Source: Balanoglossus misakiensis | Lineage: Eukaryota; Animalia; Hemichordata | Reading direction: 5' to 3' | Length of the DNA stretch: 64,000 nucleotides | NCBI GenBank assembly: GCA_040954595.2 | Contig: CM082586.2 | Span: 9,331,337-9,395,336 of the forward strand | In this document: positions 1 to 26,054 of the stretch, one piece after another | Position numbering within the stretch: position 1 is the first letter of the stretch | Layout of the letters: the number at the start of each line of letters is the position of its first letter | Made by a program: the position numbers and the translations under genes | The notes under the pieces: generated by a model | Seen by the model: the letters and a program-made list of their open reading frames with translations, nothing else | Told to the model about the DNA's origin: nothing | Databases searched by the model: none

Positions 1-591
1 GGATTGGCTTTTCCAAATATGTAAATACTGCATTTATTTCTGTGAATATTGTATGTTTATGTGATCAAAAGCCCAGGGGTTATCATTGTAATTTTTATCA
101 GTTAAATCGATTTGTTTTTTGATAATTGAAAGGAATTTTGCTTCAAATATTGAACAATCTGTGTGAGTACAAAACAGAAACATTGCTGGATTATTTGACG
201 TTTTAGTTGTTTGTAAAAATGTGGGGACAAGCGGAGAATTGGCCAAATATTTTTGGTGACCACTGCCTTTAGTGTGTATGCTTTCTGGTGGTGACAGGTG
301 TGCCAAAACGTAGACAATGGAATCTGGCAGGAGCATGAAAAGAACAGTTGACTTGTTAACATATTTTGATGCCATGAAAATATGTTGTGTTATCAATCTG
401 TGGTAACCTGTATGTGCCATTTGTATGGAAACTGTGATCAAGACATGAATTTCTGAATATCACAAGCTTGGCAGTGAATTCATTGTTAATTGTTATCCTG
501 TTTGTAGGCAATTGTATATTTTCATGTATTAGTTTAAATATAAATTTATAGTTAATTAGTTAATTAAACAGGTTTTTTATTTTCTTGACAG

Positions 592-617
592 ATTTTGGCT
601 ATCAAAGAGTTTTCAAG
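592..617 (+). other. Candidate 26-bp micro-exon upstream of the transposase ORF
   Basis: Polypyrimidine acceptor ttttttattttcttgacAG (AG at 590-591) and perfect donor AAG|GTGAGT at 617/618. Confidence 0.5.
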
Positions 618-1119
618 GTGAGTGTTGGTGCACAACAGTGCATAGTATCATAGATTAACACACTCAGGTGTGCATTGTGTCAAATGTGAATTAGTCTTTT
701 AAATCATTTGCGGAGGAATTGCTTAGTTCTACTATCAGTCACACTGTGGTTTAATATCAGATAGGATGATTGTCCACTTCCATGCAACGTCTGTAAACAT
801 GTAAAAGCACTAGCCCATTTCTTTGAATTTGTTATTCAGGGGTGACGGAAGAAAAACATATTGTAATAGTTCTTAGAAATGGTGTTTATTGAATACATCA
901 GAAAGGAAGGGACTTGTATGTGAAGAACAATCATTGTGCTATGTGGTGTTAAGATCATTGGATAGTGCCATTACTTACAACAGTGGCTTCAATAAAACAT
1001 TGGTATGATGTATGTTTCTTGATATCCCTGCCTTGTTATTGAACTTGTATATTAAATTACTAAGTGTAAATCAGGTCTAAAACAATCGTTTGTGATTTGT
1101 ATGAGTACATAATGAAAAT

Positions 1120-2640
1120 GCCAGGATGTAAGGTCATACAGGGGTCAGGATTCAAGCCTTGTCAGGTTCTTCAGGAGGGAAATGCGGTGTCAGTGAATAC
1201 TGTGTGTGTATTTGTCCGTGTGTGTGTCTGTATGTATGAATGCATACATACATGAATGCTTGTCATTGTACTTGGACTTGATATTGCTGACTGGTGGAAA
1301 TGGTTTTGAAGTGAAATTTTATTCAGATTTGGCTGAGTACATTGCAACGTAAATGGGAAAATGTCGGGTCATTCAGGGTCAGGTCTGAAGCCTTATTTGG
1401 TTGTACACGGTGGATGTTGGGGTGTCCGTGTATTTGTTTATGTCTGTGCAAATGCATACATGTATGCCTATCGTACTTGGACTTGATATTGCTAACTGGT
1501 GGAAATGATTTTGAAGTGAAATTTTATTCAGATTTGGCTGAGTACATTGCAACATAAATGGGAAAATGTCGGGTCATTCAGGGTCAGGTCTGAAGCCTTA
1601 TTTGGTTGTACACGGTGGATGTTGGGGTCTCCGTGTATTTGTTTATGTCTGTGCAAATTCATACATGTATGCCTATCGTACTTGGACTTGATATTGCTAA
1701 CTGGTGGAAATGATTTTGAAGTGAAATTTTATTCAGATTTGGCTGAGTACATTGCAACGTAAATGGGAAAATGTCGGGTCATTCAGGGTCAGGTCTGAAG
1801 CCTTATTTGGTTGTACACGGTGGATGTTGGGGTGTCCGTGTATTTGTTTATGTCTGTGCAAATTCATACATGTATGCCTATCGTACTTGGACTTGATATT
1901 GCTAACTGGAAGTGAAATTTTATTCAAATTTGGCCGAGTACATTGCAACGTAAATGGGAAAATGTCGGGTCATTCAGGGTCAGGTCTGAAGCCTTATTTG
2001 GTTGTACACGGTGGATGTTGGGGTGTCCGTGTGTTTGTTTATGTCTGTGCAAATGCATACATGTATGCCTATCGTACTTGGACTTGATATTGCTAACTGG
2101 TGGAAATGATTTTGAAGTGAAATTTTATTCAGATTTGGCTGAGTACATTGCAACGTAAATGGGAAAATGTCGGGTCATTCAGGGTCAGGTCTGAAGCCTT
2201 ATTTGGTTGTACACGGTGGATGTTGGGGTGTCCGTGTGTTTGTTTATGTCTGTGCAAATGCATACATGTATGCCTATCGTACTTGGACTTGATATTGCTA
2301 ACTGGTGGAAATGATTTTGAAGTGAAATTTTATTCAGATTTGGCTGAGTACATTGCAACGTAAATGGGAAAATGTCGGGTCATTTAGGGTCAGGTCTGAA
2401 GCCTTATTTGGTTGTACACGGTGGATGTTGGGGTGTCCGTGTATTTGTTTATGTCTGTGCAAATTCATACATGTATGCCTATCGTACTTGCACTTGATAT
2501 TGCTAAATAGCGGAAATGATTTTTAAAGAAAATTTCACTCATATCTGAGATTTGTCTGAGCACATTCCAATGTGAATGCCAGAATGTTAGGTCATACAGG
2601 GGTCATGATTTAAGCCTTATCCTGTTTTCCAGCAGAAAAA
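1120..2640. repeat. 205-bp tandem repeat (about 6 near-identical copies plus degenerate flanks)
   Basis: ttgcaacgtaaatgggaaaatgtcgggtc recurs at 1342, 1547, 1752, 1943, 2148 and 2353. One unit is 191 bp because of a 14-bp deletion near 1910. Diverged copies lie at ~1120-1270 and ~2510-2640. Confidence 0.95.
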
Positions 2641-2893
2641 AAGTGTGTCTGTGATACTTTGTGTGTATATGTGTCTATTTGTATACAGGCATGGGGATAT
2701 GTGTGTATTATGTGTTGCTGTTGAATTACAACTTTGTTCGGACTTTCTATAAATCACTTCTGTCTGTTAAAAGTTCCACTACTTTTTACTGGTTATAATC
2801 ACTAGTGATGTGATTTGATGAGACGGTTATCTGAAGTCTGGTGGTGAAAGGATAGTAAAAACCTAACTAGACAGTATATTTGCTTTGTTCCAG

Positions 2894-5800
2894 ATGCCAC
2901 GCAGTAGATACTGGAGGAAGAAGAGGAGTCAGAAGAATGAAGATGCTGTTGTGTCTGAGGATCCTGTCCTCTTGAAAAACAGGATAGCTATAGAGCACAA
3001 AGAGGGGCCTGCCCTCTCTAAAAACAGGAATAGAAATGAATACAAAGAGGGGCCTGCCCTCTCTAAAAACAGGAATAATAATGAATTCAAAGAGGGGCCT
3101 GCCCTCTCTAAAAACAGGAATAGAAATGAATTCAAAGAGGGGCCTGCCCTCTCTAAAAACAGGAATAGAAATGAATACAAAGAGGGGCCTGCCCTCTCTA
3201 AAAACAGGAATAGAAATGAATTCAAAGAGGGGCCTGCCCTCTCTAAAAACAGGAATATGGATAAAATCAGAAAAAGTGACAGAGAAAATGAAAGTACAAA
3301 AGTCAACAATGAGATATTTGAGACTGAAAATCAAAGTGTTGATAAGACTGAAGGAAGTAATGAAATTCTGCAACAACATAGTCTTGACAATGATTCATCG
3401 GACGACCTATATATTGGTAGTGGACCAGAGGACAGTGTGTATTCATTCTCTCCACTTACTTCTGATGTATGTGAACAGCTGTGTTGCAAATTTGATATTG
3501 TAGATAAAAATAAAATTGATATTTTAAATAAACTTGGAAGTGTTACAATTGGAGACCCATGTAATTACAAGTCAATAATTGGTGATGGTAACTGTTTTTT
3601 TAGGTCCTTGTCATATTGTATAAGTGGGACTGAGCGAAATCATGGAGTTATTCGAATGGCCATTGTGAATCACTTGAAAGCCAATGAGGAAGTATATTCA
3701 GGCTGGGTAAGGTTAGATGGATATACATCAGTTGCTGATTATATTGCAAAGTCCAGAATGGATCATCTAGGAACATGGGCTACAGAAACTGAAATCATTG
3801 CCACTACAAACCTCTTCAATGTAAATATTTTCGTGTACAGTTTTGATAGTTGGTGGAAGCATTCTTGTAATATAATCAATAAAAACAATGTTGATAGAGG
3901 TGTTGGTATATACCTGAACCATCGCAATAGAAACCATTATGAAGTAGTTGAGTGTGTGAAGACACCACAGTTGGAAACCTGTCATTGTACACACATTGAT
4001 TGCAATGAAGTTGTCCCTATTGAACCTGTAACTGGAGAATGCATGGGTGTGACAGACAATGAGTGTTCAAAACAAATTGGTTTGAAAAAAGAGTTCCATT
4101 TGGATGACGTTTTTGCAACACAGTGTTTCGCACCAGTACGAAGTAAGAAACGCAGTAGAGCCATTGGTGAACGGTTAAAAAAGAAACTCAGGCATGAAAA
4201 GTATGAAAGTGAAAGAGGTAAATTGAATCAATTAAATGTATCCAATAGTGTGAAGAGCTCTAAAGCAGCTAAACAACATGAATGTTATCAGACTAATTCT
4301 GAATATAGAGACAACCGAAAATCAGATAGTAGAAAGAGATATCATGAAAATGTACTCTATAAAGAGAACAAAAAACGTAGACTTGCAGAGAGATATGATC
4401 GTGACCTGGTGTTTCGTGAAGCACGGAAAACTATGTCTGCAGAACAATGTTTGGCAAAATATGAAAAAGTTCCACTATACAGAGAGCACAAGAAGAGTGA
4501 GAGTGCAGCACAATGTGTTGACAAGTACGAAAAAGATCAGACGTTCCGAGAACAAAAGAAGAGACAGAGTGCAGCACAATGTGTTGACAAGTACAAAAAA
4601 GATCTGGAGTTTCGAGAACATAAGAAGAGACAGACTGCAGCAGTATTTGCTAACAAGTTCCAAAACGATCAGAACTTCCGAGAACACAAAAAAAGTCAGA
4701 ATGCAGCACAATTTCTTGACAAGTATAACAGAGATGAAGAGTTTCAAAACCGAACAAAAAAAAAGTGTTTGGAACGTTACCAACAGGATCACGTTTATAA
4801 ACAAACTGTACTAGAGAGAAGACGTACTGAGAGGAAAGTGACAAAGATTGAAAAGGAAAATATAGAGCGTGTTATAATTGATTTCCAGAATCAGATTTCA
4901 GTTGGGCCAAATTGTGTATGTTCAGTTTGTCACCGGCGACTTTTTAGAAAACAGGTACTTGTTTGTAAGATGGATAACTATGTCTCTAAGGGAGGTCTCT
5001 GTGAAATGAATGCCAATAAATGCATAACACAAGATTATGTACACAACTGTACTGAATTATGTATTATTGATTGTCCCCTTAAGAGCAGTGCAGCCAGTAA
5101 ATTATGGATTTGTCACACATGCCATAGCAAACTCTTGCGTGCAGAGATGCCTGTTCAAGCTACTGCAAACAATCTTGATGTCAAACCAATTCCCAATGAA
5201 TTAAAATGTCTGAATTCTTTAGAGCAACATTTAATTGCACTGCATATTCCTTTCATGAAAATGATGGCTCTGCCAAGAGGTGGACAAAATGGTGTTCATG
5301 GACCTGTTGTGTGTGTTCCATCTAATATAGAAAAAGCCACAAGTATTTTGCCTAGAGGTGAATTGGATGACCAGATGATAAAGGTGAAATTAAAGCGGAA
5401 ATTAAGTTATAAAGGTTGTTATGAGTATCAATTTGTAAACAAAGGACACATTCAAAATGCACTGGAATACCTAAAGAAAAATAACATGTGGTATAATGAT
5501 GTAAAATTCAATCTCACTTGGGAAAATACTCTTGAAAAAACTGAAGAAAAATCTGACGGTGAAGGTAATGTAAACACTGAGGAAAAATTGTTAGATACTG
5601 AAGGCAATGATGTAGCATCAGACACAGAAGATGGAAATGAACCTGATAGAGATACAAATGGAATATTCATGGACACATGCTTTCAACCAGTTGACATTGG
5701 TCAGGATATTCTGGATTATCACTTTGACGATATCGCTTGTGTTGCTCCTGGTGAGGATAATAAACCTGTTAGAGTTTTGATGGAAAAGTTCAATGAGGCA

Positions 5801-8800
5801 AAGTGCTTTCCTGTGATATTCCCAACTGGGTCACCAACATTTCACGATGACCGAGAGGTTAAGATAACAATAGGGCGATACCTGCAAAGTCGTCTAATGA
5901 ATGCAAGTAACAGGTTTGCCAGAAGCACAGACTATATATTTTATGCACAATATCGTTCAGAACTTGACCAGGTTGTATCAAATGTGTCAATCGCTTTGAG
6001 AAAAGGAACTGCCAACGCTTGTGGCAAAAAGGTGACATCTGATATTCTGACTAATGGGGATTCTTTGAGAGAGATATTGAAGTGTGATGAAGGCTACAAG
6101 TTTTTAAAACCAGTACGTGGAACTCCTCCTTATTGGCAAGCTACACAGAAAGATTTGTTTGCGATGATCAGACAGTTAGGTATACCAACATGGTTCTGCT
6201 CATTTTCTGCTGCTGACTTAAGATGGAAAGAAGTAATTGAAACTATCCTACGTGAAGAAGGTGATACACGTAATGCTGAGGATCTCGATTGGTCTGAGAG
6301 ATGTGGTATCTTGAGACGAAATCCCGTAACGGCAGCTAGAATGTTTGATCACAGATTTCATTGTTTCTTGAATGAGGTAATAATGTCACCAGCCAATCCT
6401 ATTGGGAAGATCAAAGATTATTTTTATCGGGTTGAGTTTCAGCAGCGTGGATCGCCTCACACTCACTGTTTGTTTTGGGTTGAAAATGCACCTAAAGTGG
6501 ACAAAGATTCTGATGATGATGTTGTTGACTTTGTTGACACATATGTAACATGTGAAATGCCTTCTATTGAAGAGGATGAGGTACTGCATGAGATTGTGAA
6601 AACAGTCCAGAAACACAGCTCAAGGCATTCAAAATCTTGCAAGAAAAAGGGTACTACATGTCGATTCAACTTTCCTCGACCTCCTTCAAACAAAACTTTT
6701 GTATGCCACCCTTCTGTCAGCATAGATACCGGTATAGAGGTAACAGACAACGATCAGTGTAAGGATGATCAAATCACTACATTACTGGAAAGTGAATGTG
6801 AAAATAGTATGCCTCAGTTGGATGACACAGCATTGGTTCAGAAGAAGGCTAGACACATTTTAGAACGAGTGTGGACATGCCTGTGTGAGAAAGAGAAACA
6901 AATTGATACTATTGATGATTTGTTTAATGCAGTTGGCATAACTCAGGAAATGTTTGAACAAGCAAATGCAACTTTGGCCAAGAAGACAAGTGTAGTTCTA
7001 AAACGTGAACCAAGTGATGTGTGGGTGAACCAATATAATGCCAATCTTCTCCGTTGCTGGAATGCAAATATGGACATTCAGTTTGTTGTGGATGCTTATG
7101 CCTGTGTTGTGTACATTGTGTCATACATCTCTAAGGCAGAAAGAGAAATGGGTTTACTCCTGGAACATGCACAGAAAGAGGCTAACAAAGAAGGAAATAT
7201 GGATGCAAAGTCGGCTATGAAAGAGTTAGGTGGTGTATATCTGCACAATAGGGAAATAAGTGCCCAGGAAGCTATATATAGGGTATGTGGTTTGAAACTG
7301 AAACAATCATCACGAAAAGTTCAGTTTATTCCAACAGGAGAAAATCAAATTAAAATGAGTTTGCCATTAGCTGCAATACAGAAGAAAATGAAAGGTGATG
7401 ATTTAGATGAGGATGAGATATGGATGAATAGCATTGTGGACAGGTACAAGAACAGACCAAACGGGGAAGATTTTGACAACATGTGTCTTGCCACGTTTTG
7501 TTCTGAATACAGAGTGGTTTCAAAATCAGAAATGAGAAATGTGTGTAATGAAAAACGCCGAAGTCCAATAGTGAAGTTGAAAAATGACGTTGGTTTTATG
7601 CAGAAAAGATCTAGAAGTGATGGGGCTGTTGTTAGATATGCAAGATTTTCTGTTACCAAATATCCAGAGAAGCATTATGGCAGTATATTACAGCTTTTTC
7701 TCCCATACCGAAGTGAATCACAACTGAAACCTAGTGGATTTGAATCGTATGAGGATTTTTATTGTCTTGGCGCAGTGAAATGTGGCTCTGCTTCTTTAGA
7801 AAAGGTTAAAATGATCGTTGATGCCAATAAAGCATTATTTGAAACAGAGGCTGATGCTATGGATGCAGCTGAACAAATTCTTGATGAGAATGGCCATCTT
7901 GAAGATGCATGGGCTCAAATGTGTCCAGAAAATGAATTAGAACGATTGGAATGCATTGAAGAAGGTAAAAAGTGCTGTGGTGATGATACCGTAGATGACG
8001 ATGATATTCCAGATTTGGTTCAGAAACCTAAAGGTGATGACTGCCATGTAGAAATTTCGAATTCAATAAGGAAATATGAGGTTGAAGCAATGTGTAGATC
8101 GTTGAACAAGAAACAAGCAGAAGTGTTTTACACTGTCAGGAAGTGGTGTTTGGACAAAAGCAATGGCAAGAATCCAGAACCCTTTTTTCTGTTTGTCACT
8201 GGCGGTGCTGGTACTGGGAAAAGTCACTTAATCAAAGCCATATATCATGAAGCCAAACGAATACTAGCTCGGGCAATGCCAGATGTTGATGGAATTTCTA
8301 TTGCTTTAACTGCACCGACAGGAGTCGCGGCATTTAATGTACAAGGAACAACTCTCCATCATATATTCTCTATAGCTGTTGACTCAAAGCTGCCATATCA
8401 ACCACTGCGTGAAGAAAAGCTCAATACTCTTCGTTGCAAGTTTGGTAACCTTCAAATTTTGATAATAGATGAGATTTCTATGGTAGACAAAAAGTTATTG
8501 TACTATGTTCACGGAAGACTACGACAAATCAAACAGTCATCGGCTGAGTCACCATTTGGGAATGTGTGTGTTATTGCTGTAGGTGATTTTTATCAACTTC
8601 CACCTGTGAAAGCAAGTCCACTGTGTATAGACCGTGAATCCATCAATCTGTGGAATGATAATTTCAGTATGGTAGAATTAACTGAAATAATGAGACAGAA
8701 AGACTGTGCATTTGCGGAGGCACTAAATCGAGTAAGAGTTCACAAAAAAGGGGACACACTAAATGCTGGTGATGTGGCAATGTTACAAAAGTGTGTTACA

Positions 8801-10183
8801 GGTGAAACATCGGAGGCAATGCATGTTTTTGCTACAAATGCAGAGGTTAATAGCTGTAATGTTGAAATGCTTCATTCTCAATGTTCTGATCCTGTCTGTA
8901 TTGAAGCAGAAGATTTTAGCAGGAATCCTAAAAGTGGAAGACTAGAAAAAAAGGAAGGTCACCATGTCAAAGTGTACAGGACAACTTTGCCAAAGACTCT
9001 TACTCTAGCTGTTGGTGCACGAGTACAATTGACACATAATATTGATGTTGCTGATGGTTTGGTGAATGGCGTATTCGGCACAGTATGTCACATTGCAGTG
9101 AAACCAAATGTAAAATTCCCAGCTGCCATTTATGTTGTATTTGATAATGAGAAAGTTGGCCAAGGATTGCGTAAAAAGAAGCCTATAACTATATCTGACC
9201 TTCCAGTAAACAGTACCCCTATAGAACCCCAGGAAATGTCAGTTGCAAGCAATGGTGGTATTCGGAGGCAGTTTCCTTTAAAACTAGCTTGGGCATGTAC
9301 AGTGCATAAGGTGCAGGGATTAACAGTTGAAAAAGCTGTTGTTAATTTGAAGAAGATGTTTGCACCAGGACAGGCATATGTGGCATTGAGTCGAGTGACA
9401 TCATTAGATGGTCTCATTATTAATGACTTTAACAAATCTTCCATATATTGCAATGAAAAGGTCCAAGAAGCCCTGGAAACAATGCCAAAGTTTCTTCCCA
9501 AATGTACTCAGACAGAACAGAGTAATTACAAGTGCTCATTTGTATTGCATAATGTCGAGGGACTTGTCAATCATATTAAAGATATTTGCAATGACAGTGA
9601 ATATTTGAAAGCAGATTTCATTTGTTTGACGGAGACATGGTTATCTGAAAAAGAAGCATGGTGTGATGTACAATTAAGCGGGTTTGAATTCAATCACCAA
9701 CCTCGATCTCAATCCTACAATCAATTTGATACAAATACCTCAAGTTTACAGTTGCAACAGCGGGGTGGTGTTGGAGTCTATAGCAAAATTTGCAAGAATT
9801 TTGAAATTTTGCATTTGGCTGTGACTAATTTGGAATGTATTTCATTTTATGTCACAAATATCAATGTTACAATAGCTATAGTTTACAGACCTCCATCATA
9901 CAAAGCAGAGGTATTCAAAAATAGCATGGTTTGTTTGGTGAAAGCAATGGAAAAATACCCAGGGGGCAAACTGATCATGGGTGATTTCAATGAAGATATC
10001 TTGACTCGGTCATCACTTGTAAAGTTCATGGAAGGTCATGGTTTCAGACAATCTGTAAGCGAACCAACTACAGAAGCTAATACGCTGATTGATCATGTGT
10101 ATGTGAAAGGAATAAAGAATGTGACAGTAAATGTTATACCAAAATACTTCAGCTTTCATGAAGCAATAAGCATCAAAATATAG
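2894..10183 (+). CDS. Helentron (Helitron2) Rep-helicase-endonuclease polyprotein with N-terminal OTU domain
   Basis: Uninterrupted ORF (track 2885..10183; first ATG at 2894, directly after a candidate splice acceptor). Motifs in order: OTU IIGDGNCFFRS...NHY; CSVC...WICHTCH; Rep RGTPPYW, PTWFCSFSAAD, YRVEFQQRGSPHTH (HUH, with the Ser typical of Helentrons), YIVSYISK (Y2); PIF1-like GGAGTGKS, IIDEISM, GDFYQLPPV, QFPLKLAWACTVHKVQG, YVALSRV; APE-type HNVEGL, LTETW, YRPP, GDFN, IDHVY. Confidence 0.95.
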   Translation: MPRSRYWRKKRSQKNEDAVVSEDPVLLKNRIAIEHKEGPALSKNRNRNEYKEGPALSKNRNNNEFKEGPALSKNRNRNEFKEGPALSKNRNRNEYKEGPALSKNRNRNEFKEGPALSKNRNMDKIRKSDRENESTKVNNEIFETENQSVDKTEGSNEILQQHSLDNDSSDDLYIGSGPEDSVYSFSPLTSDVCEQLCCKFDIVDKNKIDILNKLGSVTIGDPCNYKSIIGDGNCFFRSLSYCISGTERNHGVIRMAIVNHLKANEEVYSGWVRLDGYTSVADYIAKSRMDHLGTWATETEIIATTNLFNVNIFVYSFDSWWKHSCNIINKNNVDRGVGIYLNHRNRNHYEVVECVKTPQLETCHCTHIDCNEVVPIEPVTGECMGVTDNECSKQIGLKKEFHLDDVFATQCFAPVRSKKRSRAIGERLKKKLRHEKYESERGKLNQLNVSNSVKSSKAAKQHECYQTNSEYRDNRKSDSRKRYHENVLYKENKKRRLAERYDRDLVFREARKTMSAEQCLAKYEKVPLYREHKKSESAAQCVDKYEKDQTFREQKKRQSAAQCVDKYKKDLEFREHKKRQTAAVFANKFQNDQNFREHKKSQNAAQFLDKYNRDEEFQNRTKKKCLERYQQDHVYKQTVLERRRTERKVTKIEKENIERVIIDFQNQISVGPNCVCSVCHRRLFRKQVLVCKMDNYVSKGGLCEMNANKCITQDYVHNCTELCIIDCPLKSSAASKLWICHTCHSKLLRAEMPVQATANNLDVKPIPNELKCLNSLEQHLIALHIPFMKMMALPRGGQNGVHGPVVCVPSNIEKATSILPRGELDDQMIKVKLKRKLSYKGCYEYQFVNKGHIQNALEYLKKNNMWYNDVKFNLTWENTLEKTEEKSDGEGNVNTEEKLLDTEGNDVASDTEDGNEPDRDTNGIFMDTCFQPVDIGQDILDYHFDDIACVAPGEDNKPVRVLMEKFNEAKCFPVIFPTGSPTFHDDREVKITIGRYLQSRLMNASNRFARSTDYIFYAQYRSELDQVVSNVSIALRKGTANACGKKVTSDILTNGDSLREILKCDEGYKFLKPVRGTPPYWQATQKDLFAMIRQLGIPTWFCSFSAADLRWKEVIETILREEGDTRNAEDLDWSERCGILRRNPVTAARMFDHRFHCFLNEVIMSPANPIGKIKDYFYRVEFQQRGSPHTHCLFWVENAPKVDKDSDDDVVDFVDTYVTCEMPSIEEDEVLHEIVKTVQKHSSRHSKSCKKKGTTCRFNFPRPPSNKTFVCHPSVSIDTGIEVTDNDQCKDDQITTLLESECENSMPQLDDTALVQKKARHILERVWTCLCEKEKQIDTIDDLFNAVGITQEMFEQANATLAKKTSVVLKREPSDVWVNQYNANLLRCWNANMDIQFVVDAYACVVYIVSYISKAEREMGLLLEHAQKEANKEGNMDAKSAMKELGGVYLHNREISAQEAIYRVCGLKLKQSSRKVQFIPTGENQIKMSLPLAAIQKKMKGDDLDEDEIWMNSIVDRYKNRPNGEDFDNMCLATFCSEYRVVSKSEMRNVCNEKRRSPIVKLKNDVGFMQKRSRSDGAVVRYARFSVTKYPEKHYGSILQLFLPYRSESQLKPSGFESYEDFYCLGAVKCGSASLEKVKMIVDANKALFETEADAMDAAEQILDENGHLEDAWAQMCPENELERLECIEEGKKCCGDDTVDDDDIPDLVQKPKGDDCHVEISNSIRKYEVEAMCRSLNKKQAEVFYTVRKWCLDKSNGKNPEPFFLFVTGGAGTGKSHLIKAIYHEAKRILARAMPDVDGISIALTAPTGVAAFNVQGTTLHHIFSIAVDSKLPYQPLREEKLNTLRCKFGNLQILIIDEISMVDKKLLYYVHGRLRQIKQSSAESPFGNVCVIAVGDFYQLPPVKASPLCIDRESINLWNDNFSMVELTEIMRQKDCAFAEALNRVRVHKKGDTLNAGDVAMLQKCVTGETSEAMHVFATNAEVNSCNVEMLHSQCSDPVCIEAEDFSRNPKSGRLEKKEGHHVKVYRTTLPKTLTLAVGARVQLTHNIDVADGLVNGVFGTVCHIAVKPNVKFPAAIYVVFDNEKVGQGLRKKKPITISDLPVNSTPIEPQEMSVASNGGIRRQFPLKLAWACTVHKVQGLTVEKAVVNLKKMFAPGQAYVALSRVTSLDGLIINDFNKSSIYCNEKVQEALETMPKFLPKCTQTEQSNYKCSFVLHNVEGLVNHIKDICNDSEYLKADFICLTETWLSEKEAWCDVQLSGFEFNHQPRSQSYNQFDTNTSSLQLQQRGGVGVYSKICKNFEILHLAVTNLECISFYVTNINVTIAIVYRPPSYKAEVFKNSMVCLVKAMEKYPGGKLIMGDFNEDILTRSSLVKFMEGHGFRQSVSEPTTEANTLIDHVYVKGIKNVTVNVIPKYFSFHEAISIKI
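2956..3257 (+). repeat. In-frame 45-bp minisatellite encoding (EGPALSKNRNRNE[Y/F]K)x6
   Basis: agaggggcctgccctctctaaaaacaggaat at 3001, 3046, 3091, 3136, 3181 and 3226, plus a degenerate copy at ~2956. Confidence 0.95.
3560..3955 (+). other. OTU-like cysteine protease domain of the polyprotein
   Basis: SIIGDGNCFFRSLS (catalytic Cys codon ~3593), WATETEI and HRNRNHYEVV (His ~3935). OTU domains are known in animal Helentrons. Confidence 0.85.
4415..4800 (+). repeat. In-frame 66-bp (22-aa) degenerate repeat, REHKKxxxAAQCVDKYxxDxxF
   Basis: Repeat starts at 4415, 4481, 4547, 4613 and 4679; basic, probably helical segment. Confidence 0.85.
5930..7290 (+). other. HUH/Y2 rolling-circle Rep domain
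   Basis: WFCSFSAAD (motif 1), VEFQQRGSPHTH (HUH at 6458-6466), YIVSYISK (two catalytic Tyr, ~7112-7135). Boundaries approximate. Confidence 0.92.
8100..9490 (+). other. PIF1-family SF1B DNA helicase domain
   Basis: Walker A GGAGTGKS at 8201-8224, TAPTGVAA, Walker B LIIDEISM, GDFYQLPPV, LTEIMRQ, HKVQGLT, GQAYVALSRV. Boundaries approximate. Confidence 0.95.
9540..10180 (+). other. Apurinic/apyrimidinic-like (EEP) endonuclease domain
   Basis: HNVEGL, DFICLTETWL, GGVGVY, IVYRPP, IMGDFNED, LIDHVYV and terminal SFH (canonical SDH position). A C-terminal APE fusion is the defining feature of Helentrons. Confidence 0.88.
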
Positions 10184-10203
10184 TAATTTACACTTGTATT
10201 TGA

Positions 10204-10209
10204 AATAAA
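10204..10209 (+). terminator. Candidate polyadenylation signal AATAAA
   Basis: About 20 nt after the TAG stop. The AT-rich context makes a chance match possible. Confidence 0.35.
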
Positions 10210-10871
10210 ATAAGTAAATAGAAAAATGAAGAAAAAAAACATGACGAGGAAAAACCTCATTCAGGTACATGCTTCAAAAATGGCCTTTGTTAACAAAAAG
10301 ATTGGTGACAGATGGTTCCAGACCTTGTTGCTTCGCCAAGGCAAATCATGTGCCTCTGGTGGTAGGACATGACCGGGCAAGTATCCTGTGCTGGCGGAGC
10401 GACTCTTGCTAGTTGCTATACTCCTTGCCTAATCATACTGCCAGTAGTGCACTAGGGTGCATAGCGATGAGGTCTGGGAGCAAAACTACCCAGCAATATT
10501 AGTGAATATATTTATACTGGCTCCTAGGATAAATCAATTATGTTCAATTCAAATAGTTTATTGTCAACAACAAATGTAAAAAATGTCTTCAGGCTCACTA
10601 ATCAAGTTACAAGTACAGGATAAAGAGCATTGTGATAAAATTTATACATACATCAACACAATTCCAATATGATGACAACCACATCTGCATGCAGCTAAGG
10701 ATAAAACTGAGAAAGGATGAAACTGAGGGTGAAAGAAAACAGAAAATAGGAGAACTGTTTACAGGGTTAAAATATATTATAACAGAAAATACAATTAATG
10801 AACTATGTAAAGGTGCTACAGATACTAAAATGTTCAAAAATAAATCATCAATCAGTTAATATAAAATAGAC

Positions 10872-10967
10872 TAATAAATAAATATACTGATGAATAAATG
10901 TACTGATAAATAAATAAATAAATAAAAACAAACAAACAAACAACAAACAAAAAAATATATATATAAA

Positions 10968-10999
<32 letters not shown>

Positions 11000-11102
11000 A
11001 AACAAACAAACAAACAAACAAACAAACAAACAAATAAATAAATAAATAAACAAACAAACAATCAAACAAACAAACAAACAAATAAATAAATAAATAAATA
11101 AA
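10872..11102. repeat. Compound (AAAT)n/(AAAC)n microsatellite
   Basis: Direct reading of alternating AAAT and AAAC tracts. Confidence 0.95.
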
Positions 11103-11739
11103 TTCTAGTTTATAATTTCTATTTTTTGATGGAATTACAGAAAACAGGTCATGACGTTTTTGATCTGATGTCAAGTGGCAAAGTTCCCCATAATACAGTA
11201 CCAGCGTAGGATATTGCAAATTTACATATCGATGTATTGACAGTTGGAACAAAAAGATTTCCTTGATTTTTATGTCATGTACTGTATTGGTGAGACGCTA
11301 ATGAACAATACTTAGTGAAACAGAGAGGTAAATTGTCATTGACCACAGGTCATACAAAAAGGTACACAATTGAAGTTTGTGTGGTTTGAAGATGTCAAGA
11401 ATATGCAAATGTTTAAATAAAACAGTCAAGTGTGCTGTGAAGTCGCGAAAGGTTACAACTCTAGCTGCCTTTTTAGAGCAAGGAGAATGCTGTTAAGGTG
11501 AAAAGGATATGTGGATATCCAGACTTCAAGGCCGATTAGGTGATGTGATGTAGTATAAATGTGTTTAATATAGAGAAGAATTAAAATATATTTTGGTACA
11601 AATTTGAAATGATTTAACTTTCAGAAGAAGATAAACTCAGGCGAAGGATTGAGTAATTTAAGACAGGCTGCCTGGCTGTCATAATGTTTTATCTGTCTGT
11701 ATGTCTGTGTCATGTATGCACTGGCATATGTACATTTGT

Positions 11740-11763
11740 AACATATGTACATGTGTATATGCA

Positions 11764-11800
<37 letters not shown>

Positions 11801-11819
11801 ATGCATGCATGCATGCATG

Positions 11820-11851
<32 letters not shown>

Positions 11852-11935
11852 TGTATGTATGTATGTATGTATGTATGTATGTATGTATGTATGTATGTAT
11901 GTATGTATGTACCGGCATGTATGTGCGTGCATGTG
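11740..11935. repeat. Compound (TG)n/(TATG)n/(CATG)n microsatellite
   Basis: Direct reading. Confidence 0.95.
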
Positions 11936-14900
11936 TACCAGTATGATGTGGAGGCATTTTCTATGAATATACAACATTATTCTTAAATATGATAAGTATT
12001 TTACGGCAATTAATCCATTTCATGGAAAGTGTTATCGTTCAATTTGGAAGCTCCGGAGGATGCAATTACAATGTTAAATATTACAGTAACATCATGGGAT
12101 AATCATCTTTGTGTGCAGACTCAATATTGAGTATATATATATAATTTATCTGCCTTCAATTCTGTGCGGTATAGTGTATTTATTGCATTTTATCAAAAGA
12201 TACGTCAGATGCTGTATTTTGAACATCTTATTGTATACTGTAATACTGGATAATTATTAATTTTAGTAAAGATATTTGCTTTTATTATGAGAGTAAAAGT
12301 AATGTTTGAAATTGTACATTTAATTATGGAAAAAGTTTACTGGTGTTTGGTATACCTTGTAAATAACCGAATTTGACTCAAGATAGTTATTTTACAACAT
12401 TAATTGAAATGTTTAAATTGTCATTGTTATTATCAAACATGGTTATGTGAATTTGATAACTATTTATTTGGAAACAATGTGGCTTGAAATATTTGAACTT
12501 GTATTCTTTTTCTCAAATGAAATACTGTCTGTTGGAGATTTTATGTTTTTAAAGTTTGTGTCAACATGACATACATGAAATTTTTCATTTTCATTACAAC
12601 ACTAAGTAACATCTTTGAAATTGTCAGATTTATTATTAAACATGGTTGTGTTTATTGATTATTTAGGGGTAATTAATTATTTAGAATCAGTGTTGTTACA
12701 TTTTGTTAGAAAAGTAATTGAAATCTTTACAATTATATTTGGTTATCAAACAAAGATTGTGTGTGTTGGATATTTTACAATTATAAACATTTTGATCAGC
12801 ATAGTTGCCTTTATTTGAGCATTTACTGAATGGTTTGACATTCTAAAGTTTATCATCACACATCATTCTGTCTGTTGAATATTTTATGACAGTTAAAAGT
12901 CAAGTCGGTTGGATTAGAACATTAATTCTAATATAGATTGATGTTAGAAATTGTAAATTTTATCATCAAATGTAGTGTGAAGAATAGAAGATTGTATTAA
13001 AGTAACAATATGGTACATTGACCTGGAGAAACAGGGGTTAATAATGAATTATTTCGAATGGTATTTGTTGAGTTGTTGGCACAGAAGCTGTATGGCATTT
13101 CAGTGTAGATAGCACATGTGAATATACAGCACATGTGAATATACAGCACTGAAACCAATGCATTTTAATACAAGTGAACTGTAGATGTGAATTTGGTCGA
13201 AGGGAAAAAGCAAATAGAACACTGTCACAAGATAGTGGGTCTGAGAGTTTTTTCTCATTATTAAAGTGTCACACATATACATAGCAACAATGTGTGCTTT
13301 TGAGCAAGCTCCATAATTACCCAGAAACATTATCAGGAATGCCATGCTGTTAATGAACTGTAGTCTGTTGCATGACGGATATAATAGAAAGATAATGTTT
13401 CGATCTGTATGGAAAGGGTTTTCATATCCTATGGTGTAATCGGCATAAATAGAAAAAATGGAAATATTTACAAACAGAAATATCTGTATTTAATATATAT
13501 GTGTTAATTATTTAACTTTGTTCATATCACTACCATGTGTGGATTAAGCTATTGGTGTTCATTGAACCCTGCAGAAGTCAACAAGGAACATTGTATTGTA
13601 AAAGATTAGCCTGTGCCTAGCTTGCTTTAAAACAGTGACACATCTACAAATTGTTCATTTCATATATAGATGCATGCTTTTAAGAGACAAACTCTTATTC
13701 AGCAATTGTTAAGAGTTTTCTTTAATATTAAAAACTGTTTCTGTTGTTTTAATAGTTGAAACATGCTGAAATATTGGTGAACTGTACTCAATCTGCACTA
13801 TGCACATACGGTACACATACATGTACAAGATAGAACATTCAATGATTCAGTAAAATAATTTGTGATGTCCATCCTGTTTTTGACTGTTGGTTAAACTTCG
13901 ATCCATGTATTTGACTATATAGCCATACGTTTAGACCACATCGAGCTTAGAATGAGATCATAGAGTATGAATTACTCTAGCTGTCATGTACAGTACCATG
14001 ATGGCAATATGTTATGTATCCAAGAGAAACAATGTACATGTAGTTTATTTAATCTGAATGTCACACATAGAATCACCACTTTTTATATAGCAAAGGGGTA
14101 ATTTCTGACCCCGTTTTTTGTTTATGCACTGAAGTTATATTGCACAGTGAGAAACGTTATGCAAGTATTCCCTGTATTCTTGAATGATATCACAAAAAGG
14201 GCCAAACACTGCATTTTGAAATTCTAGTAGACTTTTGCCAGGGTCAGATTTCCACACTTAATAAGTGTTATATTAGATATGTCCTCTTAATATATATGTT
14301 TTTAAGTATTTGATATGTCAACATGCACTGAAAGGAATACTGGATATTCAAATAATTAAGATAGATGGTAACTTAAGTACACCAATTCTCTTGGTGGAAG
14401 AATTAAATATTGTCTGTTACTACACTTGGCCATAGTCATTAAATTAAAGCCAGCTTGGTTTGCTTTAATATAAAACTAATGGGTAACAGATGAATTATAA
14501 ATGGCAAAGTGTGCATCATCACATAATAGCCAAAAACAGTGCCTAAGATACTGAAGAGCATGTGATTCATATGAAGATTTTAGAGTAAGACACAGCTTAT
14601 TAATGTTCAAGCTTGTAAGATAAGGATTCTGCAAAAGCTGAACAGTTAGGTCATTTAAGTAGTTCTATGGTAGATAGATGCTGTTGTTTCCAAAAATGCA
14701 GTATGTTACTCAAATGATGAGTGACAGCATTCCTGGATTTAACTTGCATCAGTAATTTGCTAGTTAAGTCAAATTTTACTACAATTTGTCACTTGTGGTC
14801 AGTCTTGACGGGTGTAACATGCTAGGAGGGTATACACTATCCATTCCGGACACCTGGTACCACCACTTAGCAGTGGTTCAAGACGATCCTGTTGATATTG

Positions 14901-15459
14901 TCATTTTTCTCTTATTTATTATTTGGACCTGGTAATTAGCTTACCTTGAATGATATTGATTATTCAACCTGATTTGGTGTCTTATTCTTGCAATAACAAA
15001 CACAAACCTCTACTGTTGTCAACCTTTTATTTATTTAAGATAAACCTTTCAGTTGAATCATTGCTTGTTTGAAAGCAGCCTTTATTGAAGTTATCTCTTT
15101 ATTTTTATGCACATTATAGGTCTCTGACCACTTAAAACATAACTTCTATGTCTGATTTTCTTATCTATCTTTACTCGGTACAATATATCTGGTTTGGCTG
15201 ATATATCACCCAATGGCCATACAAACTTTTGTCATTTAATTATGTCACATACTAGTACATATCCAAAACACAAAACATCTATGGCCCTCTTATTATTAGG
15301 CATACAATTTGCTTAAGTATAACAACCTGTAAAGTGTTTCAACATACCAAATACAAATACTTTATCTGCTCTGAAAGTCGAGATTTGGAAAAATAAGACA
15401 AGGTCACCCCAGGGACAAGGCTGAACCTACTATGGATGCTGATATATACGAACGAAAAT

Positions 15460-16070
15460 CAAAGGTCACCTAAGGCCACACCTATATTCGGACAAAATAG
15501 TTTGACCCCATACTATGTCCATGTCGAACAAACACCAGACCTGTAGCCGTGTTGGTAAACCTGTAATTATGTATGCACATAATTAATGCGTAAAGCAGGT
15601 GTCATAGGTGACCCAAAACTTTGGCTTTTCATTATGGCCCCATACCTCCAAACGCCAAGGTTGTACCTGCTTTGGATCCTGAGATATGCAAAAGTAGGTC
15701 AAAGGTCACCTGAGGTCACCCAAACTTTGGGCAAAATATTTTGACCCATAGTGGTCCATGTCCAACAAAAACCAGACCTCTAGCCCTTTTGGTTAGCCTG
15801 GAATTAGGTATGCACATAATTAATGAGTTAAGCAGGTGTCACAGGTGACCCAAAACTTTGGCTTTTCATTATGGCCCCATACCTCCAAACGCCAAGGCTG
15901 TATCTGCTGTGGATGTCGAGATATGCAAAAGTAGGTCAAAGGTCACCCGAGGTCACCCAACATTTGGGCAAAATATTTTGACCCCATACTGGTCCATGTA
16001 TAACAAAAACAAAACCTCTAGGTCTATTGGTTCGTCCGTAATTAGGTATGTGCATATTTAATGAGGGCAG
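15460..16070. repeat. ~237-bp internal subrepeat of the elements (copy number varies per unit)
   Basis: ggtgacccaaaactttggcttttcattatggcccc recurs with 237-bp spacing (15621/15858, 45757/45994). Copy number explains the ~1.43 kb versus ~1.68 kb unit sizes. Confidence 0.85.
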
Positions 16071-16343
16071 CTGAGGTCAAAGGGGTCATGAAAAGTAGCA
16101 AAATATTTTAATCACACACTAATCCACATACATCAAAAACCAAACGTCTAGCCCTATTGGTTAGCCTGGAATTAGATATGCAGAAAAATGATGCGTCAAA
16201 AGTAGGTCAAAGGTCATTGCCAAAATTACCAAAATATTTATAGCTTATTCTTGGCATATGATGATTCATATCCATAAAAAGAATTTCTGTGCTATCAATT
16301 TTTAGGCTAGAAAGGGAATTTTTACTTTTTAATCGTTTTTTAC

Positions 16344-16830
16344 AAAATCCAATATGGCCGCCATAATCTTCGACCAATCACATTCCTCATCGCAAACTTG
16401 ATAGACATCTGTTTAATGACCACACACACCAAATCTTGTGACTCGGTTATCGCTGGTTCTTGAGAAGAAGATTTTTGAAATTTTACTAGGGTTTTTCGAA
16501 AATCCAATATGGCCGCCATAATCTTCGACCAATCACAATGATCTTCGCAAACTTGATAGACCTCAGTTTGGTGACCACATACCCCAAACCGCGTGACTCG
16601 GTTATTGCCGGTTCTGGAGAAGAAGATTTTTGAAATTTTGACCAGATTTCAGAAAAACAACTGTAGCAAAAAAACTGCAACATTGACAGCAAAATATCCA
16701 ATTACAAAAATGATGGGCAGAAGGTACACTACCAGCACACCAAATCTGAAGTCGATCTGACTTGTAGTTTCTGAGATCTGAGATTTGCTTTTTTTCAGAA
16801 AATCCAATATGGCCGCCATGTCACGTGACT
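16344..16830. repeat. ~150-155-bp internal subrepeat (AAAATCCAATATGGCCGCC...) of the elements
   Basis: Motif at 16344, 16499 and 16799 with a diverged intermediate copy; the same layout is present in every unit. Confidence 0.8.
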
Positions 16831-16971
16831 AATTAAAAATTCAAGAGTTCAATGCACGACTACCCATTGACCTTGACCACTGTAGCAAGTTTGAGAAGTG
16901 TACCTGCAGCGGTGTCTGAGATCTAGAGCGACAAAGAAATGACACAAGAAAAAAGAAAGAAAGAAAGACAG

Positions 16972-17025
16972 AAAAACCCCAACGAAACCAATAGGGCCCA
17001 AGCGCTGGTATGCGCTTGGGCCCTA
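16972..17025. repeat. Terminal hairpin cap (14-bp stem, 6-nt loop) containing the subterminal inverted repeat
   Basis: TAGGGCCCAAGCGC tggtat GCGCTTGGGCCCTA at 16992-17025, preceded by the conserved AAAAACCCCAACGAAACCAA. Confidence 0.9.
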
Positions 17026-20000
17026 AAGAAAGACTGAATTAAAGCTGCAAGCAGCATTGTCCGGGCCCAAGCTCTATTATCTGATCTGATTATTAGATAT
17101 GCACATAATTAATGAGTAGAAACATAATGCTGTGTTTTATCCCATGAAATATCATGGTTATATCTATGTTTAGTGCTGATAAAGTGTTAAGTAGGTCAAA
17201 GGTCACCCAGAGGTCACCCATAATTTGGGCAGAAAATTTTGACCCATAGTGGTCCATGTCCAACAAAAACCAGACCTATAGCACTTTTGGTTAGCCCGGA
17301 ATTAAGTATGCACATAAATAATGAGTTAAGCAGGTGTCACAGGTGACCCACAACTTTGGCTTTTCATTATGGCCCCATACCTCCAAACGCCAAGGCTGTA
17401 TCTGCTGTGGATGCTGATATTTGCAAAAGTAGGTCAAAGGTCACCAGAGGTCACCCAACATTTGGGTAAAATTTTTTGACCCCATACTAGTCCTGTCCAA
17501 CAAAAACAAAACCTCTAGGTCTATTGGTTCGCCTGTAATTAGCTATGCACATAATTAATGAGGTCAGCAGGGGTCAAAGGGGTCGTGAAAAGTAGCAAAA
17601 AATTTTGATCACACACTTATCCACATACATCAAAAACCAAACTTATAGCCCTATTGGTTAGCCTGGAATTAGATATGCAGAAAAATGATGCGTCAAAAGT
17701 AGGTCAAAGGTCATTGCCAAAATTACCAAAATATTTATAGCATATTGTAGTCATATGATGATCCATATCCATAAAAAGAATTTCTGTGCTATCAATTTTT
17801 AGGCTAGAAAGGGAATTTTTACTTTTTAATCGTTTTTCACAAAATCCAATATGGCCGCCATAATCTTCGACCAATCACATTCCTCTTCGCAAACTTGATA
17901 GACATCTGGTGAATGACCACACACACAAAATCTTGTGACTCGGTTATCACCGGTTCTCGAGAAGAAGATTTTTGAAATTTTACTAGGGTTTTTCGAAAAT
18001 CCAATATGGCCGCCATAATCTTCGACCAATCACAATGATCTTCGCAAACTTGATAGACATCAGTTAGGTGACCACATACCCCAAACCCCGTGTCTCGGTT
18101 ATCACCGGTTCTAGAGAAGAAGATTTTTGAAATTTAAGCCAGATTTCAGAAAAAAAATTGTAGCAAAAAAACTGCAACATTGACAGCATAATTTCCAATT
18201 ACAAAAATGTTTGACAGAAGGTAGTCTACCTGCACGCCAAATTTGAAGTCGATCTGACTTGTAGTTTCTGAGATCTGAGATTTGCATTTTTTCAGAAAAT
18301 CCAAGATGGCCGCCAGGTCATGTGACTAATTAAAAATTCATGGGTTCAATGCACGACTACTCATTGACCTTGACCACTGTAGCAAGTTTGAGAACTGTAC
18401 CTGCAGTGGTGTCTGAGATCTAGAGCGACAAAGAAATGACAGAAGAATAAAGAAAGAAGAAAGAAAGACAGATTAAAGCTGCAAGCAGCATTGTCCGGGC
18501 CCAAGCTCTATTATCTGATCAGATTATTAGATATGCACATAATTAATGAGTAGAAACATAATGCTGTGTTTTATCCCACGAAATATCAAGGTTATATCTA
18601 TGTTTGGTGTTGATATAGTGTTAAGTAGGTCAAAGGTCACCCAGAGGTCACCCACAATTTGGGCAGAAAATTTTGACCCATAGTGGTCCATGTCCAACAA
18701 AAACCAGACCTCTATCCCTTTTGGTTAGCCCAGAATTAGGTATGCACATAAATAATGAGTTAAGCAGGTGTCACAGGTGACCCAAAACTTTGGCTTTTCA
18801 TTATGGCCCCATACCTCCAAACGCCAGGGCTGTATCTGCTGTGGATGTCGAGATATGCAAAAGTAGGTCAAAGGTCATCCGAGGTCACCCAACATTTGGG
18901 CAAAAAAATTTGACCCAATACTGGTTCATGTCCAACAAAAACCAAACCTCTAGGTCTATTGGTTCATCTGTAATTAGGTATGCGCATATTTAATGAGGTC
19001 AGCAGAGGTCAAAGGGGTCATGAAAAGTAGCGAAATTTTTTGATTGCATACAAATCCACATACATCAAAAACCAAACTTATAGCCCTATTAGTTAGCCTG
19101 GAATTAGATATGCAGAAAAATGATGTGTCAAAAGTAGGTCAAAGGTCATTGTCAAAATTACCAAAATATTTATAGCTTATTCTTGGCATATGATGATTCA
19201 TATCCATAAAAAGAATTTCTGTGCTATCAATTTTTAGGCTAGAAAGGGAATTTTTACTTTTTAATCGTTTTTCACAAAATCCAATATGGCCGCCATAATC
19301 TTCGACCAATCACATTCACCTTCGCAAACTTGATAGACATCTGTTTAATGACCACACACACCAAATCTTGTGACTCAGTTATCGCCGGTTCTTGAGAAGA
19401 AGATTTTTGAAATTTTACTAGGGTTTTTCGAAAATCCAATATGGCCGCCATAATCTTCGACCAATCACAATGATCTTCGCAAACTTGATAGACCTCACTT
19501 AGGTGACCACATACCCCAAACCACGTGACTCGGTTATTGCCGGTTCTGGAGAAGAAGATTTTTGAAATTTTGACCAGATTTCAGAAAAAAAATTGTAGCA
19601 AAAAAACTGCAACATTGACAGCAAAATATCCAATTACAAAAATGATGGGCAGAAGGTACACTACCAGCACACCAAATCTGAAGTAAATCTGACTTGTAGT
19701 TTCTGAGATCTGAGATTTGCATTTTTTCAGAAAATCCAATATGGCCGCCATGTCACGTGACTAATTAAAAATTCAAGAGTTCAATGCACGACTACCCATT
19801 GACCTTGACCACTGTAGCAAGTTTGAGAAGTGTACCTGCAGCGGTGTCTGAGATCTAGAGCGACAAAGAAATGACAGAAGAATAAAGAAAGAAGGAAAGA
19901 CAGAATTAAAGCTGCAAGCAGCATTGTCCGGGCCCAAGCTCTATTATCTGATCTGATATTAGATATGCACATAATTAATGAGTTGAAACATAATGCTGTT

Positions 20001-26000: not shown

Positions 26001-26054
26001 GTCTGAGATCTAGAGCGACAAAGAAATGACACAAGAAAAAAGAAAGAAAGACAG

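What the first reader, a model, noticed from the sequence alone, without database searches (positions are those of the whole stretch)
1..17037. The intact autonomous Helentron appears to be a nested member of the array it could mobilise
Seen: the first array body has no left terminus and grades into the unique tail behind the ORF. Its cap (ends 17025) is followed by an orphan remnant AAGAAAGACTGA whose matching TACC-type cap sits at 26163-26213. Inference: the >17-kb coding element is inserted in the microsatellite of a host whose body lies left of the window, so enzyme source and substrates share one locus. If so, the ORF runs toward the large-hairpin/microsatellite end, which is the end usually drawn as 5' for DINE-1/HINE elements.
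Basis: inference. Interest (0 to 1): 0.78.

Follow-up and report, generated by a model that had tools for sequence, protein, structure and literature searches.

The report
Intact Helentron inside self-nested transposon array
An unbroken rolling-circle transposon gene is followed by the same end piece that 29 short non-coding copies beside it use, and it likely landed inside one of them as they land inside each other; this is a clean case of a known transposon type, and its 'backwards' gene direction is already described.

Summary
The ORF (ATG 2894 to 10183) is an unbroken EN-Helentron transposase with catalytic motifs present. The body at 15.4-17.0 kb lacks a left terminus, is 97% identical to the nearest array units, and ends in a complete cap (17025). 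With guests removed, the following remnant and the cap at 26167 rebuild an intact TACC-type end exactly; a second orphan cap follows. The nesting parse passes 12 of 14 checks (permutation mean 5.7).

Corrections:
(1) The tail is not unique: a 3.7-kb unit (33812-37482) holds colinear homologues, tying 14.3-17.0 kb to the family; 10.2-14.3 kb stays unlinked.
(2) Orphan caps do not prove a host body to the left: a near-exact block duplication made two more orphans, and multi-cap composites are published.
(3) Reverse ORF orientation is known (Helitron-1_DR, Helentron-Da-40, HLE2-reverse).
(4) The element looks multi-copy and a spliced contig matches a sister copy, so the enzyme probably acts in trans.

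The left terminus could not be seen. The more striking result is the strict, very recent self-targeting: 30 of 30 insertions lie beside a cap.

The parts
1..617 (+). Upstream non-coding part of the element; likely 5' untranslated exon sequence; continues left of the window
   Evidence: 61, 88 and 5 contigs of runs X1-X3 lay on 1-1210 with many variants; one X3 contig runs 261 letters past position 1; one X3 contig leaves the window after 617 and continues with the letters of 2894 onwards
618..2893 (+). Likely intron (GT at 618, AG at 2892-2893) holding a 205-bp x 6.2 tandem array (1268-2523)
   Evidence: one contig only
2894..10183 (+). Unbroken Helentron transposase ORF, 2429 aa from the ATG: OTU (about 3581-3844), DUF6570 (5144-5512), Rep/HUH-Y2 (5879 on), Pif1 helicase (8102 on), AP endonuclease (9548-10111)
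   Evidence: best of 895 hits 62-65% identical over residues 760-1500 (Saccoglossus, Haliotis, Myxine; Danio 61%)
10184..14304 (+). AT-rich tail with simple repeats (10864-11103, 11766-11911); no terminus found; not independently linked to either side
14305..15277 (+). Tail shared with the 3.7-kb unit (14305-14408 and 14972-15277)
15190..16945 (+). Array-type body without left terminus: decaying then intact 237-bp repeats (to 16065), 155-bp x 2 (16337-16639); the 975 bp that end in the GAAA tract are 97% identical to units 24628/37536
16946..17026 (+). GAAA tract, five-A run and complete cap (14-bp hairpin 16992-17025 holding subTIR and its inverted repeat): right end of the coding element (one A ambiguous)
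17027..17038 (+). Orphan remnant of host H1's microsatellite (GACTG type)
26164..26214 (+). TACC-type cap of host H1
26215..26267 (+). Second orphan cap (host H2)
17039..64000 (+). Nested array of non-autonomous units: 30 left termini, 29 further caps, 29 further complete bodies, all in one orientation
33812..37482 (+). 3.7-kb unit: left terminus + 327 bp ordinary start + tail homologue + graded 237-bp repeats + body + cap; likely deletion or recombination derivative of a sister coding element
29674..40657 (+). Second copy of array segment 18717-27749 (5833 shared bp, 4 mismatches) carrying different guests; duplicates the orphan cap stack at 39022-39174

Best explanation
The window holds an unbroken EN-Helentron transposase gene whose element likely runs from left of position 1 to the cap at 17025 and was likely inserted, like its short non-coding neighbours, into the A-rich tract beside the cap of a resident copy whose body would lie left of the window. 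SHOWN: intact ORF and motifs; array-type right end; remnant plus TACC cap rebuild an intact end; 30 of 30 array left termini sit in a GAAA/A5 tract (18) or directly after a cap (12), one orientation, with one ambiguous A and no target duplication (T|T on the minus strand). INFERRED from the family: RepHel binds the subTIR hairpin (cap, the DINE-1 '5' end'), nicks, peels one strand towards the small stem-loop end and pastes the copy at a T|T site, the nick probably made by the EN domain. INFERRED here: targeting depends on the neighbouring cap or the GAAA tract rather than on A-runs as such, since 680 A-runs of 4 or more in 29 bodies were never hit. The enzyme most likely works in trans from a multi-copy family; the coding copy sits here because it shares the target preference, not because the array needs it nearby. 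Short units probably arise by recombination between 237-bp repeats at the two ends of long elements.
For: ORF and motifs: (HUH, Y2, Walker A/B, OTU C/H, EN motifs present; only 2 single columns missing against 22 homologues). Right end. Parse: 12 of 14 host-cap pairs rebuild the five-A junction and cap type of the 13 of 13 uninterrupted units; permutation mean 5.7, P = 0.0005; all four pairs up to 26214 pass. Tail link. Element continues left and is multi-copy. Recent activity: two host pairs identical after guest removal carry different guests at sites 1 nt apart, in blocks with 4 mismatches per 5833 bp. Target restriction.
Against: The left terminus and host body were not seen: no genome is held, and contigs that run past position 1 are not printed. 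10184-14304 has no homologue in the window and no read evidence was obtained for it. 2 of 14 pairs fail (49995/57644, 47154/57767) and two orphan caps are duplication products, so the array is also reshaped by recombination. The TACC match rests on a single intact reference unit. The left-end stem-loop is not significant by folding (z = +0.65). The 30 sites are not all independent, since some lie in duplicated blocks. Runs X1-X3 are one sample and may be the source of the window.
Confidence: 0.6

Rival explanations
1. Unequal recombination between the shared bodies joined a coding element lying upstream to an array unit, deleting or displacing the H1 and H2 bodies; the coding element was never inserted in H1.
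For: The array shows near-exact block duplication with a chimeric unit at 29203 (its first 471 bp equal unit 40610, its rest equals unit 18473) and a second duplicated pair 42457-43760 / 50182-51486. The first body's nearest neighbour changes from tile to tile.
Against: No unit in the window is identical to the first body over a long tract (longest exact match 245 bp; 97% overall); the graded 237-bp repeats match the layout of the independent 3.7-kb unit.
Confidence: 0.15
2. The coding element jumped here as a composite carrying two extra caps (H1 remnant + cap, H2 cap) picked up at an earlier nested site; guests later filled the H1 remnant. The host bodies are elsewhere.
For: Multiple 5' termini with one 3' terminus, explained by self-insertion, are described for FoHeli (PMC5148889, passages); the polarity fits if the cap is the initiating end.
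Against: No clear case of a cap travelling without its host in the window: 12 of 14 pairs close in situ, and the two failures resolve by eye with one missing cap rather than extra caps.
Confidence: 0.12
3. The ORF belongs to a different Helentron whose end lies in 10.2-14.3 kb or was lost; 14.3-17.0 kb is a left-truncated long derivative that happens to abut it.
For: No homologue of 10184-14304 in the window; the stretch holds simple repeats and possible foreign inserts.
Against: No subTIR match with fewer than 2 mismatches, and no perfect GC-rich hairpin of 10 bp or more, between ORF and cap; same strand as published reverse-type Helentrons of this clade; GC stays 24-36% through the tail, apart from the first 300 bp after the stop.
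Confidence: 0.1
4. The resident coding copy is the local engine: it mobilises its neighbours preferentially in cis and built the array.
For: Intact ORF, 97% identical right end, very recent insertions next to it.
Against: A eukaryotic transposase is translated in the cytoplasm (established knowledge); many variant contigs of the upstream region, a second deeper subfamily, and a spliced contig with 11 other letters and a 16-bp insertion against this copy; guests span two left-end types and 69-100% pairwise identity. Not exclusive of the best explanation.
Confidence: 0.15

Closest known systems
Helentron-Da-40 / DINE-1 (Thomas et al. 2014, PMC4067079; section 8 and passages read)
   Same: Rep-helicase-EN ORF; subTIR + IR hairpin + microsatellite at one end, subTIR + stem-loop at the other; T|T insertion without duplication; ORF in minus orientation relative to the drawn 5' end; short partners nearly identical at the ends
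   Different: Here subTIR is 10 bp, the ORF also has OTU and DUF6570, the element exceeds 17 kb, and copies insert beside each other's caps; the paper mentions clustering but, in the passages seen, no deep nesting
Helitron2 / Helitron-1_DR (Bao and Jurka 2013, PMC3627910; passages) and HLE2-reverse (HELIANO, PMC11417382; passages)
   Same: Asymmetric TIRs with hairpins; zebrafish Helitron-1_DR has RepHel opposite to the majority; HLE2-reverse has the stem-loop upstream of the left TIR, as here; DUF6570 marks HLE2
   Different: I did not compare this protein with Helitron-1_DR itself (nearest Danio hit 61%); no array context described in the passages seen
FoHeli of Fusarium (Chellapan et al. 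2016, PMC5148889; passages)
   Same: Self-insertion, multiple 5' termini, reversed ORFs
   Different: No EN domain; one nested case (non-autonomous inside autonomous) and short 5' duplications, not a 47-kb-plus array with a coding guest
Cg_HINE of oyster (PMC7492417; passages) and Xenopus Heli2Xen (PMC12001565; passages)
   Same: subTIR/IR/microsatellite/internal tandem repeats; Heli2Xen autonomous copy bounded by the minisatellites that fill its short derivatives
   Different: Dispersed copies; no cap-adjacent nesting in the passages seen
Hydractinia subtelomeric Helitron-like arrays (PMC11934779; abstract and section 6)
   Same: Large local arrays of Helitron-derived units
   Different: Described as tandem arrays of a 372-bp unit, not nested insertions

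Membership tests
Helentron (EN-bearing HLE2/Helitron2) | One ORF with Rep (HUH, Y2) and Pif1 helicase | tested here: met
Helentron (EN-bearing HLE2/Helitron2) | C-terminal AP endonuclease; often OTU; DUF6570 as HLE2 marker | tested here: met
   PF03372 E 6.5e-7, PF02338 E 5.9e-6, PF20209 E 2.1e-20, all above curated cut-off
Helentron (EN-bearing HLE2/Helitron2) | Terminal subTIR forming a hairpin with an adjacent IR at one end | tested here: met
   16992-17025
Helentron (EN-bearing HLE2/Helitron2) | Matching subTIR and stem-loop at the other end of the coding element | not testable with these tools
   Lies left of the window; no genome held. Present in all 30 array units' left ends
Helentron (EN-bearing HLE2/Helitron2) | subTIR of 11-15 bp as in the published families | tested here: inconclusive
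   Shared exact motif is 10 bp; within the 8-15 bp given for Helitron2 ATIRs, short of the 11-15 bp
Helentron (EN-bearing HLE2/Helitron2) | Insertion at T|T without target duplication | tested here: met
   For array units: paralogous empty sites identical after guest removal, one ambiguous A. For the coding copy only the right flank is visible
Helentron (EN-bearing HLE2/Helitron2) | Phylogenetic placement in the HLE2 clade | not tested
   No tree built; homologues with the same domain set at 53-65%
HINE / DINE-1-like non-autonomous partners (array units) | No coding capacity; subTIR+IR+microsatellite at one end, central tandem repeats, subTIR+stem-loop at the other | tested here: met
   the small stem-loop is present by eye but not significant in folding
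Autonomous (active) element | Functional transposase expressed from this copy and both ends intact | tested here: inconclusive
   ORF unbroken; spliced contig fits a sister copy; activity not testable
Canonical Helitron (HLE1) | 5' TC, 3' hairpin + CTRR, A|T target, no TIR, no EN | tested here: not met
   TIR-type ends, T|T target, EN and DUF6570 present

The most novel reading that the evidence does not exclude
This Helentron family homes to its own ends: transposase bound to a resident cap tethers the endonuclease to the T-tract 15-60 nt away or to the cap edge, so coding and non-coding copies pile into self-renewing Russian-doll arrays, still growing (at least four independent insertions in blocks only 0.07% diverged). 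The intact gene plus this natural target would give a ready assay for the unresolved role of the Helentron EN domain.
Probability: 0.35. Interest if true: 0.65.

Novelty: new member of a known kind. Interest (0 to 1): 0.4.

Why it matters
Helentron target choice and the role of its endonuclease domain are hypotheses in the paper that defined the group (PMC4067079, passages). A candidate intact transposase, its cognate 1.4-kb substrates and a sharply defined, recently used target in one locus make a transposition assay straightforward and show a route from transposon to satellite-like block. The co-location itself and the ORF direction are not surprising.

Tried and rejected
Leftward extension: no genome held; three contig runs of one sample hold 40%, 37% and 6% of the words of 1-10000 (no RNA holder listed); laying them on 1-1210 showed overhangs but not their letters. 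No read depth or linkage was obtained for the tail and right end, so 10.2-14.3 kb stays open. Related loci with ends: left-terminus motif 0 matches in viral contigs; Rep region 0 relatives there; alignment A1 returned 80 loci each from metagenome, viral and prokaryote collections, mostly Pif1-only hits at about 30%; 10 of the 80 metagenome loci were picked by hand (9 with Rep-side coverage, plus L011) and scanned, none held these termini, and no fetched locus held the left-end motif. No match of unit left ends or the 237-bp repeat in 1-14300, and none between the 205-bp intron repeat and unit repeats. An imperfect hairpin at 14438-14469 starting like the left terminus was rejected as a boundary: 7 letters only, and tail homology continues on both sides. 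The reading that the coding element is the host of the array was rejected: its own tract, five-A run and cap are uninterrupted. No second gene (such as RPA) was evident by eye among ORFs of 60 aa or more in 1-2860 and 10190-15500; they were not scanned against Pfam. Earlier notes: none for this genome or these sequences. Six paper searches listed no paper whose title or abstract start describes a deep cap-adjacent nested Helentron array with a coding member; subscription journals are largely missing and supplements were not read.
Full report
THE GENE. One long ORF dominates the window: 2867-10183 (+), 2438 codons stop to stop, first ATG 2894. Pfam finds OTU, DUF6570, Helitron_like_N, PIF1 and Exo_endo_phos above their cut-offs. 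Against 22 homologues the HUH, Y2, Walker A/B, OTU and EN motifs are present and only two single columns are missing. The best of 895 hits are 62-65% identical proteins of Saccoglossus, Haliotis and Myxine; fishes follow at about 60%. This is an EN-bearing HLE2 (Helentron) transposase with no visible lesion; activity is untested.

THE ARRAY. From 15.4 kb to the window end there are 30 left termini, 30 caps and 30 body-end markers, none on the reverse strand. All 30 left termini sit in a unit's GAAA tract (8), in the A-run after GACAG/GACTG (10) or directly after a cap (12). None of 29 bodies is interrupted, although they hold 680 A-runs of four or more. All 13 uninterrupted units have five As before the cap; removing guests by a stack parse restores five As and a fitting cap type in 12 of 14 host-cap pairs, against 5.7 on average when caps are permuted (P = 0.0005). 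Each insertion adds the unit plus one ambiguous A, that is T|T on the minus strand with no duplication.

The first body has no left terminus. Its 237-bp repeats decay leftwards into the tail. Its last 975 bp before the A-run are 97% identical to units 24628 and 37536 and fall among the array units in a tree. Its cap is complete and is the only strong perfect hairpin in 1-17030. The remnant after it carries GACTG, found elsewhere in the array only in the one intact TACC-type unit; remnant plus the cap at 26167 rebuild 63 nt identical to that unit's end. A further cap at 26218 is also unclosed. All four testable pairs up to 26214 pass.

CORRECTION 1, IN FAVOUR. The tail is not unique. The 3.7-kb unit at 33812 has an ordinary left end for 327 bp, then sequence colinear with 14305-14408 and 14972-15277 at 63-67% identity (well above shuffles), then graded 237-bp repeats, body and cap. 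So a second lineage links this tail to this body, and the element reaches at least from 14.3 kb to the cap. The stretch 10184-14304 has no such support, though it holds no rival terminus. The 3.7-kb unit also suggests that long elements have 237-bp repeats at both ends and that 1.4-kb units form by recombination between them (inference; a Xenopus autonomous Helitron2 is bounded by its minisatellite, PMC12001565 passages).

CORRECTION 2, AGAINST. Orphan caps need not mean a host body to the left. The segment 18717-27749 recurs at 29674-40657 with 4 mismatches in 5833 shared bp and brings the same cap stack, making two more orphans at 39075 and 39126 with no GACTG remnant. Two pairs near 57.6 kb fail the parse. 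Unequal exchange therefore reshapes this array (or two haplotypes were joined in assembly). Self-insertion can also yield elements that travel with several 5' termini (PMC5148889 passages). I put in-situ nesting at about 60%.

THE LEFT SIDE. No genome is held. Three contig runs of one sample hold part of the stretch. On 1-1210, 61 and 88 contigs of X1 and X2 lay with depths of hundreds to thousands, about two thirds of them under 99% alike, cover 29 and 30 of 30 bins, and some run past position 1. Depth is no copy number, but the many variants indicate a multi-copy element with no end inside 1-1210. One X3 contig leaves the window after 617 and continues with the letters of the ATG at 2894; the skipped part begins GT and ends AG, so the family is likely transcribed and spliced. 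That contig has 11 other letters and a 16-bp insertion against this copy, so it likely comes from a sister copy. The predicted left terminus and host body remain unseen.

ORIENTATION. On the minus strand the cap reads subTIR, IR, microsatellite, the end drawn as 5' for DINE-1 and Cg_HINE (PMC4067079 and PMC7492417 passages). The ORF does run towards it. That is published: Helentron-Da-40, partner of DINE-1, has its ORF in minus orientation (section 8 read); so has zebrafish Helitron-1_DR (PMC3627910 passages); HELIANO calls the layout HLE2-reverse (PMC11417382 passages).

HOW IT LIKELY WORKS. By analogy with Helitrons (established knowledge, not tested here) RepHel nicks at one end, unwinds a strand, stops at the other end and pastes the copy elsewhere; which end initiates is assumed from the DINE-1 convention. 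Thomas et al. hypothesise that the EN domain nicks T-rich targets. Here plain A/T runs are spared and only the tract beside a cap, or the cap edge, is used, so the cap or the GAAA tract itself likely guides the choice; the sequence cannot separate the two. The duplicated blocks date this: hosts that are identical after guest removal carry different guests one base apart (19906 against 30862; 23087 against 33812), so at least four insertions postdate a split of 0.07%. The coding copy is best seen as one more guest with the same preference. Supply of enzyme in trans from a multi-copy family is more likely than a local engine.

WHAT IS NEW. The element is a new member of a well-defined group; self-insertion, clustering and reversed ORFs are each in print. 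Six searches listed no description of a deep cap-adjacent nested array with a coding member, but the library lacks most subscription papers; a lepidopteran Helitron-like family that disrupts (GAAA)n microsatellites was seen as a reference title only. PMC13085455, PMC2374699 (passages) and PMC11934779 (abstract, section 6) gave context only. An unchecked note of this scan reports a similar self-nested array in another genome. Verdict: observation largely right, nesting probable, orientation ordinary; interest 0.4.

Noticed in passing
window 18717-27749 and 29674-40657: Near-exact block duplication whose identical hosts carry different guests at sites 1 nt apart; unit 27702 appears in one copy only. 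Natural empty-site controls and a sign of very recent activity (or two haplotypes joined).
   Followed up: yes
window 618-2893: Likely 2.3-kb intron in the 5' leader with a 205-bp x 6.2 tandem array; splice seen in one X3 contig.
   Followed up: partly
window 1111-1147: A 37-bp motif shared by 13-16 contigs per run with varied flanks, so also part of another dispersed repeat; similar to 2546-2672.
   Followed up: no
window 576-651, 737-817, 930-979: A second, deeper subfamily shares only these islands with the upstream region.
   Followed up: no
window 47154-57815: The parse fails at two pairs; by eye one host (51681 or 54640) has lost its cap; host 47154 plus cap 57713 rebuilds the end of unit 62094. 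A second duplicated pair lies at 42457-43760 / 50182-51486.
   Followed up: partly
window 11630-11940: Short hairpin followed by GTCT-like and ATGT microsatellite; may be a remnant of another DINE-like element (resemblance recalled, untested).
   Followed up: no
window 14800-14960: GC-richer patch inside the part absent from the 3.7-kb unit; may be a small retroelement fragment (resemblance recalled, untested).
   Followed up: no
every unit, e.g. 15706-15718 and 16347-16362: The 237-bp repeat carries a direct repeat like a nuclear-receptor DR1 site and the 155-bp repeat a CCAAT/YY1-like motif (labels recalled, untested).
   Followed up: no
window 2963-3257 and 4438-4725: In-frame 45-bp x 6.6 and 66-bp x 4 repeats in the N-terminal part of the ORF.
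   Followed up: no
window 21674-24627 and 32398-37535: A diverged unit subtype (71% to the first body) nests with the others, so several subfamilies share the target.
   Followed up: partly
L006:7498-7528: An 11-bp GC-rich hairpin 1.7 kb downstream of a distant (28%) RepHel-EN match; possible terminus of another Helentron.
   Followed up: no
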